The position numbers and the translations under genes are program-made. A stretch of DNA of 64,000 nucleotides. It comes from Octopus vulgaris. Its lineage: Eukaryota. The notes beneath the pieces are model-generated. The model did not search any database, had not been told where the DNA came from, and saw nothing but the letters and a program-made list of their open reading frames with translations. The stretch covers positions 63,860,001 through 63,924,000 of the forward strand of contig OX597815.1 in NCBI GenBank assembly GCA_951406725.2, given 5' to 3'. Position 1 is the stretch's first letter; every line of letters starts with the position of its first letter. Below are positions 1,294-54,604 of the stretch, in pieces.

Positions 1294-1417
1294 GCTTACG
1301 GCCGTTTCTGCCAAGAGGCAACGAAATCTTCCAGGTAATCTCAATCTCTTCAGTGTTATGCAAGGATGAGCAGATAAGGCTCGGATAATGAATGTACCCC
1401 TAGGCTTCTTCAGAGGG
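1294..1417 (-). ncRNA. Type I hammerhead ribozyme motif with extended stem II and weak stem I
   Basis: Minus strand reads CUGAAGA-aGCC..(~90 nt)..GGCa-GAAA-CGGCCG-UA; palindromic stem III; stem I only about 2 bp. Confidence 0.6.
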
Positions 1418-1716
1418 TCTAAGTGGTTGGGGTGGGATAACACATATAAAAATCAGTTAATAATTGCTACAGTGTGTTTGTCTTTTTGAAATAGAGTAGA
1501 AAAAGAATAAGAGTAAGAATAAGAACAAGTACGAGAATACACGTGAAGTACATCATATTTTAATGATTTGGGCATAGCAAGGGGAAATAAGATACAGACT
1601 TCCCGTGATGTATTATAAGATCCATGTTATTTCATCCATTGGTGGGTAGGTGAATATAGTCGTTCTCAGTAGGAGTTTTTACAGGAAGGGTAATTTTAGG
1701 CAGTAGTTCCCATTAT

Positions 1717-1777
1717 GTTTCCATAGAACTTCAGTGGTGGGTTACCATCAGACCCACCACTGAAGTTCTATGGAAAC
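1717..1777. repeat. Perfect 26-bp inverted repeat with 9-nt loop
   Basis: gtttccatagaacttcagtggtgggt (1717-1742) pairs with acccaccactgaagttctatggaaac (1752-1777). Confidence 0.95.
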
Positions 1778-3879
1778 CAGTCTACAGTTCAAACTTCATT
1801 AAAAAGAAATGCTTAAAGCCTCGAAGTTTCCATTTCTTTGCTTCGACGCGCAAGGATTCTTCTCTCCTGTTTAAGATATGACCAAATAAATTCAGAATCT
1901 TAAGTTTTCTAGTTGTATGTTGGTAATTGGCTGTGGATATCGAGTCTCTTGTTTTTGCTGCAACACCACATTTTATTATGTGTTGCTGCCATCTTCCAAC
2001 TTTTAGGAACCAAATATATTTCGATAAACACATTACATTTCAACACCTTCTGACTGTAAACGAATGGCTTTGTTGTTTGTATCACGCATTAAAAGTGTAC
2101 ACGGTAAACATGAAGAACACTTTCACAGATCGCTATCCGATTCTACATCTGCTCTCTGTCTATTTCTTTTGACGTACATTTTCTTTCCATGGAGATTCTA
2201 ATGATGTTGTTTCAATGGCATCTACATAGGGTTGTTTGTGTTGGTTTTATAGATTTTGATTTCTGCTTAGAGATTCGTAATCCTATATTACACAACTACG
2301 GGTGGTCTTACCAGAATTGTTGTTTATATAAGTACACAAACATATGCGGCACTTGAACACTTCCATATATATATATATATATGAATATATGTATGTATGT
2401 ATATATATATATATATGAATATATGTATATATAAACATATATATACATACACACGTATATACATACATTTATAAATATATATAAACATATATATATATAA
2501 ACATACATGTATATACATCATAAATATCGATATTTGCATTCAATCTATATATCACAGCGTGTATATATATATATATATATATATATATATATATATATAT
2601 ACATATATACACATGCATGCATAAATATATTCATATACATATGTGTGTAAACTTGTTAGGTGAGTATATCTGTGTGTGTAAGTATGCATATGAGGGTGGA
2701 GGACTATGTACGAATATGTATATTTGCATACATACACACACTTATATGCATTTTTAGATAACCGCGTGAATCCATGTGTATATATGGCTTACCCTGTCAC
2801 GAGTACACACACACACACACACACACACACACACACTCATGAACACACATCCAGTCACATAATATGACGGTAATACAATTCCACACAGACACGGCCACAC
2901 GAACGTACACATTCCATGTTAAGGAGCAGCAAAAATTTTAACAATCTAATCATCAATATCGATCCGGTTTATTGATCTTCTCGGTGCTTTACTTCCATGT
3001 CCCTTCCGGATCCATACTGGTTGGTCCTTAGGGAAGGAAAATGAAAGACACACTGTTATAGGGGGAGCAGTGGGAGATAAAGAAATCGGCACGGGATTGG
3101 TTAGCTGGAAACAGAGTGGTGTGCATATATGTTTGCGTGTGTTGCTGTCGATCTGTACACACACACACACATACGCACATACACACACATGTATATGTAA
3201 ATATGTATGTATGGATGGATGTATGGATGTACATATATATATATATATACATGTATGTATATGTATGTATGTATGTATGTATGTATGTATGTATGTATGT
3301 ATGTACGTATATGTATGAATACGTGTGTATATAAGTATGTATGTATATGCATGAATACGTATGTATATATGTATGTATGTATATGTATGAATATGTATGT
3401 ATATATGTATGTATGTAGAGGCATAAATATATATTTAGTTATATTTATATATATAGGAATATATATATGCATGTGTATACATACATATTCATGTATATAC
3501 ATACATATATATGTGAGTGTGTGTATGCATACACAGAAAGAGAGAGGGAGGGTGAGAAAGAATGTGCATATCAGTGAAAGATAGAAACAAAAAGAGTAAA
3601 ATCAGGGTATGTATGTATGCGTGTATATATATATATATATATAGAGAGAGAGAGAGAGAGAGGGGGGGAGGTGATGTGAGTGAGAATCGTATAAAAAGCA
3701 ATCTACAAAGATGTAAAATAAATAAATAAATAAATGAAATTATCGATTTATTGATTATTTTGTTATAGGAAGATAAAAGAATGACAGAAGAAAAAAAAGA
3801 AAAGAGGAGCAAAAAATGTACAAGAAGACTAAAGGAAAAAATGTAAGGGCGACAGTAAACACAAACAGTAAAAATATGA

Positions 3880-4975
3880 ATAACAACAACATTGTAAATA
3901 TCATCATCATCGTCATTACCATCATCATCATTGCCATCATAGTTATCATCACCATGGTCATTATCATCATCGTCGTCGTCACCATCCTCATCGCCATTGT
4001 CAACATAATCATCAGCATCAGCATCATCATGAACATGAACATCATCATCATCAACATGATCATCATCGTCGTCGTCGTCGTCGTCACCATCTTCATCGTT
4101 ACCATACTCATCATCATAATCATCATAATCATCATCATCATCATCATCATCAGCAGCAGCAGCATCATATTCATTGCCACTACCACTGTCACCAGTTTCG
4201 TCGTCATCGTTATCATCACCATTATAACCATGATCGATAGGGCAGCAAAAAACAACAGCAACAACAACTGTATCATTGAGTGGAGGTGAGGTGGGCGGGT
4301 AAAGGCGGTAGTTATTAACGAGATGAGAAAAAATAAACAATAACAATAAAAAAAACAATGACAATAACGACAAAAAGCAAAAAAAATTGAGCAAAACCTG
4401 TATCAAAACAACACAACAACAACTATAAAGTAAAAGTGAGAATAATGATAAAAAAATACACATAAAATTAAAACAAAAACCGCAATATCCCTACCACCAC
4501 CACAATCGTCGTCGTTGTCGTTGCCATCATTATCAGCAGCAGCAAGCTGCAGCATCAATATTGTCGCCACCACCGCCACCACTACCACCATCATCATCAT
4601 CACCATCGTCGTCGTCATCATCATCATCATCATCATCATCATCACTCTTTATCATCATTTTTATCATCATCAATATTGTTGCCACCACCACCACCACCAA
4701 AACCACTATCATCATCATCATCATCATCATCATCATTATCATCATCATCATCATCATCATCATCACCGTCATCATTATCAACAACATCACCATCATCAAC
4801 GCCACCACCGTGAGCATTATCATTGTTATCCACTTCCTTGGCCTCCGCTCCATGATCATCAGCATCAATATCACCTTTATAATTGTCAATATCGTTACCG
4901 CCACCATCACCATCCTCTTTTTCCCCCTCCTCTTCCCTTCCCTTCATCCTTCTCGTCCTCATCATCAACAAGAAC
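3880..4975. repeat. Degenerate (ATC/GTC/ACC)n trinucleotide low-complexity tract
   Basis: Long imperfect catcat/cgtcgt/caccac runs giving poly-D/H/I/M ORFs in several frames on both strands. Confidence 0.9.
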
Positions 4976-5359
4976 AAAATTGTATCAACAGCCGCATATA
5001 GAGAATGAAAGATAAGGATTAACAAGGAAAACAGTTCAGATAAAATAAAATAAAATAAATGTGTTTAACCTCCACCTCTGCCGCCGTCGCTACCACTTGA
5101 CAAACGGTGTTGGTTTGTTTTCGTTACGGTATTCTAGCGGTTTGACAAAAAAGAAAAAAAACGAAAGAATAAATACTATCAACCAATGCGCCAGCACACA
5201 CACAGATATATATATATATATATATAGATAGATAGATAGATAGATAGATAGATAGATAGATAGATAGATAGATAGATAGATAGATAGATATACATACACA
5301 CACATAAATATATATATATAACTATATATATATATATATATATATATATATATATAGCA

Positions 5360-5530
5360 TGCCGTTACGTTCTGAGTTCAAAGTCCGCCGAGGTCGACTT
5401 TGCCTTTCATCCTTTCGGGGGCGATAAATTAAGTACCAGTTACGCACTGGGTCGATGTAATCGACTTAATCCGTTTGTCTGTCCTTGTTTGTCCCCTCTG
5501 TGTTTGGCCCCTTGTGGGTAGTAAAGAATA
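5360..5530 (+). mobile_element. tRNA-derived SINE family A, 5'-truncated
   Basis: B-box-like gagttcaaag followed by gtcgactttgcctttcatcctttcgggg..gataaattaagtaccag; many copies in the window. Confidence 0.85.
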
Positions 5531-5549
5531 TATATATATATATATATAT

Positions 5550-53391: not shown

Positions 53392-53568
53392 TCTCCGCAA
53401 CTGGCATGCCGCGGCACACTAGCGTGCCACGAGACAATTCTAGGTGTGCCACAGTGTAACCTGAACATAATTTTTTCCCCTATACTTTTAGTTATATATT
53501 TAGTTCAAGTGTGCTGCCGAATTTTGAAAAGAATACAAATGTACCGCAAGCGAAAAAGGTTGCGGAGA
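53392..53568. mobile_element. hAT (Charlie-like) MITE
   Basis: Inverted ends tctccgcaac/gttgcggaga with repeated internal gtgtgccgc-like motifs. Confidence 0.55.
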
Positions 53569-53700
53569 TAAAGCAGCTATAGTTTAGAAACTTAAATGTA
53601 GTCAAAACTATTCCAATCGCAACACATTTACATGAGGAGACAAAGTTGACAGCTTTACAGTAATCCTTAGAGGAACCACCAACATAGCGAGTGGGATGTG

Positions 53701-53806
53701 GGCAGTATGGGATGTTGCGTTTTGTATGTGGTGGATGGCACAACTTAAAAGTCAGGTATTGATGTGTCCCCGTGTATTTGCATCTGTGGTAATGGTGGTG
53801 CTCTTT
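53701..53806 (-). mobile_element. Short inverted Penelope ORF fragment
   Basis: THQYLTFKLCHPPHTKRNIPYC, homologous to 51978-52083. Confidence 0.8.
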
Positions 53807-53860
53807 ACATATATATATATATATATATATATATATATATATATATATATATATATATAT

Positions 53861-54328
53861 GTTTCTTTATTAGCCACAGGGGGCTAGACACAGACGGGAC
53901 AAATTACAAAGTAGAGCTTTTCTTTTTGGGGAGAAAAAAAAAGGAGTGGGGTAGGTTTTCGATCAATAGGGATCGTGTATCACAGAAATGTCATGATGTA
54001 AAGCGTAAAGGGAGAAGCAGATAAGGTTTATCCGTCGAAAGAAAAGCCTACGGAAAATATCACGGTAACCTCGGTTATTAATGTCACATGTTAACACATT
54101 TATTTGCAAGTAACTCTCTGTTTTAAATTTTCCGGGTTCATAGGATTATACTCAATGTGGCTTCGTCATTCATAGGTGCCATCCTTGCTACATGCACCCA
54201 TTTTTTTTAAACATTCGCTAGCCAAAACTTGCCTCTCTACTCTCACTTTACTTTTCAATTGATACTTGAAGAAGTTGATGAGAGATTGACCAGAGAGGAA
54301 AGTGTTTGTCTCTAATCCTTTCAGACCA
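53861..54328 (-). mobile_element. L1/Tx1-like LINE 3' end
   Basis: [32 protein letters not shown] (resembles ORF2 C-terminus); 3' UTR ending aataaag; (TA)n on both sides. Confidence 0.6.
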
Positions 54329-54566
54329 TATATATATATGTATATATATATATATATATATATATATATATATATATATATATATATATATATATATATA
54401 TATACATATATATATATATAATAACAATTTAATAAATAAAACATGTACATACATACATACATATATGTACATACCTACAAGCTTTATGAAAATAAACAAA
54501 AGACGAAGGCAGGTGGAAAACAAACGAACAATTGTATTAGTATGGCGCTCAGGAAATATAAATAAG

Positions 54567-54604
54567 TCTTTAACGTTTCGAGCCTACGCTCTTCAACAGA
54601 AAGA
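54567..54604 (-). ncRNA. Minimal PLE-type hammerhead motif with A6U change
   Basis: UCUUU-CUGUUGA-a-GAGC guag GCUC-GAAA-CG-UU-AAAGA. Confidence 0.6.

What the first reader, a model, noticed from the sequence alone, without database searches (positions are those of the whole stretch)
1294..54604. About 12 diverse type I hammerhead ribozymes in (TA)n-embedded Penelope-derived mini-elements
Seen: the pattern stemI-(C/U)UGAn(G/A)A-stemII-GAAA-stemIII-UH-stemI', sometimes with a single core substitution, occurs at 1294(-), 6217(-), 6937(-), 13754(-), 14100(+), 23696(+), 31746(-), 32040(+), 34492(-), 35321(+), 36672(-) and 54567(-). The stems differ between families. Stem III is usually a short palindrome (CGGCCG, CAGCUG, CGAAUUCG, CGUACG, CCGG, CGAUCG, UCAUAUGA, CG). 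Established: minimal type I HHRs with palindromic stem III occur in Penelope-like element pLTRs and cleave as dimers. Inference: this genome carries many short, non-coding, ribozyme-bearing PLE derivatives (retrozyme-like) inserted in (TA)n, at roughly one HHR per 5 kb here.
Basis: partly seen in the sequence, partly recalled or inferred. Interest (0 to 1): 0.8.

Follow-up and report, generated by a model that had tools for sequence, protein, structure and literature searches.

The report
Scrambled hammerhead among Penelope ribozyme relics
The hammerhead-shaped motifs flagged here are real and are likely the leftover ends of Penelope-like jumping genes, a known kind, but the window also holds an overlooked motif predicted to fold into a hammerhead with its parts in scrambled order, a form I could not find reported from animal genomes; cutting is untested for all of them.

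Summary
Observation largely confirmed. Nine of the 12 motifs pass a type I hammerhead descriptor (6 intact, 3 with one core change); 3 have a broken helix I. Shuffles give almost none (5 intact vs 0.05 per shuffle). The 12 are 9 insertions, three of them inverted pairs, all near (TA)n. This is the published pattern of truncated Penelope-like element (PLE) ends. No same-strand tandem units occur, so 'retrozyme' is unsupported.

Two things go beyond the finding. (1) Three related motifs have 91-98-nt helix II arms; two of them covary (6 compensatory pairs, 0 broken). (2) At 23791-23867(+) lies a non-circularly permuted hammerhead (0 in 150 shuffles). The same layout recurs, with different stems, at the 3' end of one fetched Naiad PLE and, read by eye, in six published Naiad families said to lack hammerheads. 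There helix II pairs with an upstream strand, outside the six orders of Eckert 2023. Other Naiads show type CSG. Only 3 of 19 fetched Naiad loci carry either form. No cleavage or RNA-end data exist here.

The scan has noted PLE hammerheads often on other DNA, and once a 'rearranged' one at a PLE tail.

The parts
1290..1420 (-). Decayed type I hammerhead; core at 1413, 98-nt helix II arm, helix I only 2 bp next to the core
   Evidence: arm not better folded than shuffles (z -0.4)
6217..6340 (-). Type I hammerhead with 91-nt helix II arm; 7-bp helix I, 4 G-C pairs at the base of helix II, core change U4C
   Evidence: arm z -4.5
6936..6994 (-). Intact type I hammerhead, U3-A8 core variant, 8-nt palindrome; in a ~460-nt copy between two TA runs, relative of the 14100 family
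7147..7264 (+). Missed copy of the long-arm family; first core half cut off at the TA run, GAAA changed; 97-nt arm covaries with the 6333 arm
   Evidence: (z -3.65)
13238..13309 (-). Missed type I hammerhead, A9G, 43-nt arm, 6-bp helix I shared with 35327
13576..14435 (.). One young insertion: inverted arms (365 of 365 aligned bases equal, two indels), 34-nt spacer, ~100-nt tail on one arm only, TA runs on both sides
13754..13805 (-). Intact type I hammerhead, left arm; A.A mismatch at the base of helix II
14100..14150 (+). Intact type I hammerhead, right arm; member of a high-copy family whose variation spares core and stems
23696..23746 (+). Intact type I hammerhead with closed helix III and U.U at the base of helix II (as in Hydra-clade PLEs)
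23791..23867 (+). Non-circularly permuted hammerhead candidate: helix II 5' strand 23791-95, helix III 3' strands 23797-802 and 23810-14, predicted cut after 23815, helix I 23816-21 with 23855-60, GAAA 23832-35, CUGAUGA 23861-67; an alternative 4-pair helix II uses 23869-72
23786..23992 (+). ~205-nt copy between two TA runs that carries the permuted motif; its 3' end recurs at 51865-51915 (85% over 53 nt)
31746..31787 (-). Type I hammerhead, U3-A8 core, 3-bp helix I; one arm of an inverted pair (31690-32137)
32040..32081 (+). Partner arm, A9G
34492..34581 (-). Type I hammerhead, 59-nt arm, helix I broken; one arm of an inverted pair with ~600-nt spacer; this arm has a ~100-nt tail
35321..35401 (+). 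Intact partner, 50-nt arm, U.U at the base of helix II
36670..36728 (-). Intact core, mismatch at the first pair of helix I; decayed or weak
54567..54604 (-). Classical minimal PLE hammerhead (extra A, G10.1-C11.1) with core change A6U
52002..52830 (+). Broken PLE reading frame: RT thumb, cysteine linker, C-terminal GIY-YIG (Neptune-like order); no hammerhead beside it; a fragment in inverse orientation at 53705-53779
   Evidence: tblastn E 4e-33 to P0005, Pfam

Best explanation
The window holds about 15 hammerhead-shaped motifs beside TA repeats, likely the 3' ends (pseudo-LTR plus optional tail) of several Penelope-like retrotransposon families left by 5'-truncated copying; most are predicted to cut only as dimers, many are damaged, and one is predicted to fold as a non-circularly permuted hammerhead of the kind found at Naiad element ends. 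Shown: the motifs, their excess over chance, the inverted pairs, tails and TA flanks, conservation of core and stems in one family, and the same permuted layout next to a Naiad reading frame elsewhere. Inferred: a PLE enzyme nicks AT-rich DNA, starts reverse transcription at one of two internal sites (giving copies with and without the tail) and stops early or switches strand (giving single and inverted ends). The ribozyme would process tandem transcripts of the master elements, through the palindromic helix III of two copies and perhaps with help from the PLE protein; the scattered single copies are passengers that decay. The permuted motif has a long intramolecular helix III and would need no partner.
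For: Descriptor vs shuffles. Inverted arms, tails and TA context match Fig. 2 legend and text of Craig 2021 (passages) and the opposite-strand pairs of Cervera 2014. The 14100 family is high-copy (8160 contigs in one run; held in runs of 5 organism labels, 10 studies). In its most diverged long contig 0 of 37 constrained and 5 of 14 free hammerhead positions differ (Fisher p 0.0009; 0.013 if the 2 unlisted changes fell in constrained sites). Palindromes form self-duplexes of -8 to -14 kcal/mol in 8 of 9 cases and no hairpin. U3-A8 and U.U variants have precedent in PLEs. A PLE relic lies in the window. Of 72 fetched PLE loci, 16 distinct type I hits and 1 CSG hit, 0 in 10 shuffles. Tail origin, AT-rich target and protein-assisted cleavage: Frangieh 2024 (first two parts read). 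Permuted form: L223/L213 and published Naiad ends.
Against: No motif is linked to a reading frame in the window: 152 Neptune-like and 120 Naiad-like proteins hit only the 52-kb relic, or nothing. Tails here are ~100 nt or more against 30-40 bp in print. Two related copies (6937, 14100) start about 132 nt upstream of the core, and depth is high at the 5' end of the laid stretch, which fits short defined units as well as random truncation. One contig runs head-to-tail with a period of at most ~0.9 kb. Rfam recognises none. No cleavage was shown; in print 8 of 9 Xenopus dimers did not cleave and the anole PLE ribozyme was not needed for insertion in vitro. The permuted motif is a single copy with one mismatch in helix I, and its free-energy fold is a long hairpin.
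Confidence: 0.7

Rival explanations
1. The copies are short non-autonomous PLE derivatives (retrozyme-like) of defined length that move through circular or tandem RNA.
For: Similar upstream length in 6937 and 14100; no coding trace upstream of any motif; one contig going back 14400 to 13948; retrozymes derive from pLTRs (Li 2026); family present in runs guessed to be RNA (kind not on record).
Against: No same-strand tandem pair among 15 motifs; three inverted pairs and one-sided tails are PLE insertion marks; the single head-to-tail contig is one of 8160, with unknown sequence between; copy lengths vary from ~130 to ~900 nt.
Confidence: 0.2
2. The motif at 23791-23867 is an ordinary type-SGC hammerhead in the sense of Eckert 2023, with helix II formed by the strand right after CUGAUGA, not a split form.
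For: An in-block helix II of 4 pairs (2 Watson-Crick, 2 wobble) after one extra A is possible here, and of 3 pairs in L223; a further imperfect helix could join the outer strands, as in SGC ribozymes (read from the sequence).
Against: The upstream strand gives 5 pairs with G10.1-C11.1 in both; in five of six published Naiad families read by eye nothing after CUGAnGA can pair with helix II, while an upstream 4-6-bp strand always can.
Confidence: 0.25
3. The permuted motif in this window is a chance arrangement in decayed repeat DNA.
For: One copy only; descriptor designed after the motif was seen; no family copies found in prokaryote or viral collections; 16 of 19 Naiad loci lack such a motif.
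Against: 0 hits with intact core in 150 shuffles, 6 with one mismatch; an outer helix III of 6 bp and 1-nt linkers, not part of the descriptor, match L223; TA flanks and a second copy of the element's 3' end.
Confidence: 0.1
4. The long helix II arms are neutral insertions or intron remains, not selected structure.
For: Arms of 1413 and 35327 fold no better than shuffles; all three ~90-nt copies are damaged; only two sequences support covariation.
Against: 6333 vs 7150: 23 of 23 pairs kept, 6 compensatory, 7 of 500 shuffles as high, slid controls 28-47% paired.
Confidence: 0.25

Closest known systems
[quoted passage not shown]
   Same: Type I order, palindromic helix III, U3-A8 variant, many divergent families per genome, single copies and opposite-strand pairs; molluscs already included (Lottia, Crassostrea in Fig. 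S3).
   Different: G10.1-C11.1 is present in only 2 of the 12 listed motifs (6333, 54599); six motifs have helix II arms of 43-98 nt against at most about 23 nt in the Fig. S3 alignment.
Hydra-clade PLE hammerheads (Craig 2021, PMC8557442, File S2), including Hydra-1 of Octopus bimaculoides
   Same: U.U at the base of helix II, short closed helix III, TA targets; 23696 fits this type.
   Different: No Hydra reading frame was searched for or seen; longest helix II arm in that table is about 54 nt (a spike-moss element).
Non-LTR retrozymes (Cervera 2020, PMC7229834; Li 2026 preprint 10.64898/2026.07.22.740005)
   Same: Short non-coding units with a type I hammerhead, related to pLTRs; U.U base also in an axolotl family.
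   Different: Those are same-strand tandem repeats with circular RNAs; here single or inverted copies with tails.
Type-SGC and type-CSG non-circularly permuted hammerheads (Eckert 2023, PMC10085705)
   Same: Block order cleavage site, GAAA, CUGAnGA; short linker from helix I to helix II; double pseudoknot. Two fetched Naiads are exact type CSG.
   Different: Reported almost only from metatranscriptomes and metagenomes, none in a known organism's genome except one bacterial GCS candidate; their scheme assumes helix II follows CUGAnGA directly, whereas here it likely comes from a strand upstream of the cleavage block.
Naiad PLEs (Craig 2021), annotated 'HHR_core' or 'HHR_half_core'
   Same: TA targets; core halves in the 3' end that fit no standard descriptor; the same layout as the window motif in several of them.
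   Different: The paper gives no fold; the window copy has no Naiad reading frame and its stems differ from the octopus Naiad consensus.

Membership tests
Type I hammerhead ribozyme | CUGAnGA (or U3-A8), GAAA, UH and three helices in order C-G-S | tested here: met
   6 of 12 fully, 3 with one core change, 3 with broken helix I
Type I hammerhead ribozyme | Match to an Rfam hammerhead model at gathering score | tested here: not met
   0 hits; at most 15 bits
Type I hammerhead ribozyme | Site-specific self-cleavage | not testable with these tools
   only contigs, no raw RNA reads
Type I hammerhead ribozyme | Core and stems conserved across family copies | tested here: met
   14100 family only: 0 of 37 constrained vs 5 of 14 free sites differ
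PLE minimal hammerhead (Cervera 2014) | Palindromic helix III favouring dimers | tested here: met
   11 of 12; self-duplex energies
PLE minimal hammerhead (Cervera 2014) | G10.1-C11.1 and an extra base after A9 | tested here: not met
   both only in 54599, G-C also in 6333; U.U, A.A or G.U elsewhere, U.U as in Hydra-clade PLEs
PLE insertion | Inverted 5'-truncated partner and a tail on one end | tested here: met
   three inverted pairs, tails on one arm in at least two; tails longer than the published 30-40 bp
PLE insertion | Insertion at (TA)n | tested here: met
   15 of 15 within 600 nt vs 39% random
PLE insertion | Motif lies 3' of an RT/GIY-YIG frame | tested here: not met
   only relic is 52002-52830, without a motif
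Non-LTR retrozyme | Two or more same-strand tandem units, each with a complete hammerhead | tested here: not met
   none in the window; one ambiguous contig
Non-LTR retrozyme | Circular RNA | not testable with these tools
   no raw RNA reads
Type-SGC hammerhead (Eckert 2023) | Order S, G, C with all core bases and helices I and III | tested here: met
   23791-23867 and L223
Type-SGC hammerhead (Eckert 2023) | Helix II strand directly after CUGAnGA | tested here: inconclusive
   possible (4 pairs) but an upstream strand gives 5; five of six published Naiad families allow only the upstream strand
Type-SGC hammerhead (Eckert 2023) | Cleavage at the predicted site | not testable with these tools
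   none
Naiad PLE | N-terminal GIY-YIG, CxC linker, C-terminal RT | tested here: not met
   no Naiad-like frame in the window; met for L207 and by profile match for L220, L223
Naiad PLE | 3'-end motif layout as in Naiad consensus sequences | tested here: met
   same strand order and linker lengths as L223 and, by eye, published Naiads

The most novel reading that the evidence does not exclude
Many Naiad retroelements, said to lack hammerheads, carry non-circularly permuted ones: type CSG in some lineages and, in cnidarians, cephalopods and others, a seventh topology in which the backbone is open between A9 and G10.1 and helix II is completed by a strand upstream of the cleavage site. The motif at 23791-23867 is such a ribozyme, active as a monomer. 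Animal genomes would then hold large numbers of pseudoknotted and long-armed hammerheads that Rfam and standard descriptors miss.
Probability: 0.5. Interest if true: 0.82.

Novelty: new variant of a known kind. Interest (0 to 1): 0.62.

Why it matters
The motifs as first described add a dense example to a class known since 2014 and would score low alone. The permuted motif matters more. Non-circular permutations of RNA were first shown in 2023, almost only from environmental RNA, under the assumption that CUGAnGA and helix II are contiguous. A form that breaks this rule, in animal retrotransposons, would extend hammerhead topology. It would also answer an open point of Craig 2021: what the unexplained 'half cores' in Naiad 3' ends are, and whether Naiads really spread without a hammerhead. 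A construct of under 100 nt tests it in one transcription reaction. Long covarying helix II arms, if confirmed, mean that counts of PLE ribozymes are underestimates.

Tried and rejected
Rfam at gathering score and by E-value: no hammerhead hit; top hits are microsatellite look-alikes of miRNA models. Whole-genome count: no genome held. Outside copies of the long-arm family: a 20-mer gave 1 viral and 18 prokaryote matches, none with core plus helix I; a gapped pattern gave 118 metagenome loci, 42 distinct, none with both palindrome and helix I; the one with an 8-bp helix I is a coding repeat. Outside copies of the permuted motif's family: 0. PLE loci in viral contigs: none; single-protein scan of genomes: none. 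No RNA holder listed for the 14100 family; this says nothing about expression. A tetraloop-receptor reading (recalled motif) of the AAU/UAA loop in 14104, 6988 and 36723 was dropped: family variants change that loop and the automatic alignment of the four gave no consensus fold. A core at 1353 for the 1294 motif was rejected: no helix I or II; homology to 6333 and 7150 points to 1413. Weak hits at 15022, 20419, 43091, 51842 and 62839 were treated as chance. The palindrome-only counts printed used a wrong index and are not cited. In the sampled G007 and G008 Naiad loci no CUGAnGA lies within 1.2 kb 3' of the frame. Lunse 2017 and Arkhipova 2017 are not held and may describe long or odd helices; bioRxiv supplements were closed. 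No paper on a strand break between A9 and G10.1 was found.

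
Full report
1. The observation. All 12 places carry the 3' half of a type I hammerhead. A strict descriptor finds 4 loci and none in 30 local dinucleotide shuffles. A looser one (arm up to 160 nt, U3-A8 allowed; tuned after seeing the motifs) finds 5 intact loci against a mean of 0.05, and 13 with at most one core change against 0.62, in 40 shuffles. 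Sorted one by one: six are intact (C3 at 6988, 13801, 14104, 23702, 31781, 35327), three have one core change (6333, 32046, 54599) and three have a broken helix I (1413, 34575, 36723). Rfam finds none at gathering score. Helix III is a palindrome in 11 of 12; 8 of 9 palindromes tested pair with themselves at -8 to -14 kcal/mol and none folds as a hairpin. Three further motifs were missed: 13303(-), 7147-7264(+) and 23791-23867(+).

2. Anatomy. The 12 motifs are 9 insertions. Three are inverted pairs, with 365 of 365, 140 of 146 and 172 of 185 aligned bases equal. In two pairs one arm runs on into a tail of about 100 nt that the other lacks. The copies at 1294, 6217, 7150 and 31176-31250 share a short 3' end motif; two stop there at a microsatellite and two run on. 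All 15 motifs have (TA)5+ within 600 nt downstream, against 39% of random positions. No two related motifs lie on the same strand. A broken PLE frame with RT thumb, cysteine linker and C-terminal GIY-YIG lies at 52002-52830 (E 4e-33), but no hammerhead is next to it, and no frame is next to any motif. That the genome is a cephalopod's is my recalled impression of its microsatellite landscape, not a tool result.

3. One family outside the window. The stretch 13950-14430 is held by 20 runs from 10 studies and 5 organism labels. Laid on four runs (contigs only), it collects 8160, 513, 27 and 81 contigs. Of the 40 difference rows shown (35 more were not), those inside the hammerhead fall on N7, the internal loop, loop II and position 11.1; the base of helix II reads A.A, G.U or U.U in different subfamilies. 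In the most diverged long contig, for which 28 of 30 changes can be assigned, 0 of 37 constrained and 5 of 14 free positions differ (p 0.0009; 0.013 in the worst case). One contig runs head-to-tail with a period of at most about 0.9 kb. Contigs show neither RNA ends nor copy number.

4. What is known. Cervera 2014 (parts 1-2 of the text, supplement parts 1-2) describes minimal PLE hammerheads, the U3-A8 variant, single copies and opposite-strand pairs 100-700 bp apart, and weak dimer cleavage. Craig 2021 (passages and supplement searches) describes inverted partners, tails and TA targets, lists U.U-based hammerheads of Hydra-clade PLEs including one from Octopus, and states that Naiads lack canonical hammerheads. 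Frangieh 2024 (parts 1-2) links tails to internal RT start sites and finds a protein-assisted ribozyme that is not needed for insertion in vitro. Retrozymes are defined by tandem units (Li 2026, parts 1-3; Cervera 2020, passages). The giant squid paper counts 235 Hammerhead_1 loci (passage); Weinberg 2019 was seen as passages. The finding as written is therefore a dense instance of a known class, and 'retrozyme' fails its defining test.

5. Long helix II arms. Six motifs have arms of 43-98 nt. Those of 6333 (91 nt) and 7150 (97 nt) fold far better than shuffles (z -4.5, -3.65); those of 1413 and 35327 do not. Between 6333 and 7150 all 23 predicted pairs are kept, 6 by double and 3 by single changes; 7 of 500 shuffles reach this and slid controls pair 28-47%. 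The structure was derived from these two sequences, so the test leans in its favour, and all three ~90-nt copies are damaged. In 72 PLE loci fetched from host DNA in genome bins, 15 of 16 type I hits have arms of 11-19 nt. The longest published arms I saw are about 23 nt and about 54 nt. No outside copies were found.

6. The permuted motif. An order-free scan gives six ordinary hits and one in the order cleavage site, GAAA, CUGAUGA, at 23814-23867; 30 shuffles gave none in that order. Pairs: helix I 5 of 6; helix III 5 bp, two tandem G.A pairs and an outer 6 bp; helix II either 5 bp with an upstream strand (23791-95, G10.1-C11.1) or 4 pairs with the strand after the core. A descriptor for the upstream form finds this one site and 0 with intact core in 150 shuffles. 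The motif sits in a 205-nt copy between two TA runs whose 3' end recurs at 51865-51915. Eckert 2023 (parts 1 and 3-5 of 8) showed cleavage for orders SGC, CSG and GCS, found them almost only in environmental data, and assumed that helix II follows CUGAnGA directly.

7. Naiads. In the Craig supplement I read by eye the places returned for four core words (30 of 62, 15 of 23, 15 of 25 and 30 of 43 occurrences; matches across line ends are missed). Six distinct Naiad families, among them the Octopus pair, show the window's layout with different stems: helix II of 4-6 bp from an upstream strand, always G10.1-C11.1, a long helix III and a helix I of 4-6 bp. In five of them nothing after the core can form helix II. 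A seventh has only a 2-bp helix I. Six other entries are clean type CSG. For a computed check I fetched Naiad loci. Of 19 loci (about 11 families by my grouping), two carry type CSG (L207, L220), one the window's layout (L223 = L213; linkers 1, 6 and 1 nt against 1, 5 and 1), none type I, and 16 nothing; 30 shuffles gave about 0.2 hits per set and none in the SGC order. The form is thus common in Naiads but not universal. The window copy has no Naiad frame, so its parent is inferred.

8. In print? Searches for hammerhead with Penelope and octopus, with long or extended helix II, with non-circular permutation and retrotransposon, with Naiad and for the SGC/CSG terms gave no report of permuted hammerheads in animal genomes or PLEs, nor of a split between A9 and G10.1. 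Lopez-type viral 'long helix II' in PMC13725137 means 6-8 bp (passages). Lunse 2017 and Arkhipova 2017 were not held, and most subscription journals are not searched. Earlier notes of this scan include 358 on PLE hammerheads and one on a 'rearranged' hammerhead at a PLE tail in another genome, type not shown.

9. Verdict. The listed motifs alone would merit about 0.3. The long arms and above all the permuted motif, tied to Naiad ends, make this a new variant of a known kind, with no cleavage shown. Interest 0.62.

Noticed in passing
L207:4360-4445(+); L220:5150-5240(+): Two Naiad elements from host DNA in genome bins end in clean type-CSG hammerheads, a type known from two sequences in Eckert 2023; six published Naiad consensus entries show the same by eye.
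   Followed up: partly
window:35460-36464; 45933-46576; 33999-34031: A ~510-nt non-coding unit as a tandem pair, an inverted third copy and a lone 33-nt start, all at TA runs; no hammerhead; perhaps a Helitron-like or PLE-like non-autonomous element.
   Followed up: no
window:51984-52083(+) and 53701-53800(-): Two facing fragments of the same PLE frame (92% alike) both begin at the RT thumb right after a TA run; a shared break point that is unexplained.
   Followed up: partly
window:34370-34410; 51792-51827; 34899-34919: A ~37-nt motif of the 34492 tail recurs next to the 3' end of the family that carries the permuted motif, and inside the spacer of the 34492/35321 pair.
   Followed up: no
window:1717-1777: Perfect 25-bp hairpin with an 11-nt loop, 300 nt upstream of the 1413 core.
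   Followed up: no
window:14245-14287 and 6835-6865: A hairpin downstream of the hammerhead is shared by the 14100 and 6937 families and is the most deeply covered part in all four runs; candidate RT start or protein-binding signal.
   Followed up: no
window:7955-9430; 38400-41000; 50630-51180; 60500-61240: Broken non-LTR retrotransposon frames with a zinc-knuckle and restriction-like endonuclease look (zf-RVT E 6e-4), near (TAA)n or (TATG)n.
   Followed up: no
window:45473-45805: Short frame resembling a mariner-type transposase (recalled resemblance, not searched).
   Followed up: no
window:10075-10300; 11170-11620; 39685-39900; 42590-42820; 47740-47930; 57715-57930: An abundant ~220-nt interspersed repeat family, at least ten copies, and a second family at 5360-5800, 18170-18360, 31510-31700; likely SINEs.
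   Followed up: no
L239:597-659 and 4435-4497: Tandem Naiad with five in-frame TGA codons and SECIS elements above gathering score, in a bin not labelled spider or clam; no hammerhead core in its 3' region.
   Followed up: partly
L138-L266: Many GTDB representative genomes hold eukaryotic PLE contigs (72 and 11 loci), i.e. host contamination of bins.
   Followed up: no
window:44044-44357; 32251-32785: A 69-bp x 4.6 tandem with open frames on both strands and a 269-bp x 2 tandem; not examined.
   Followed up: no
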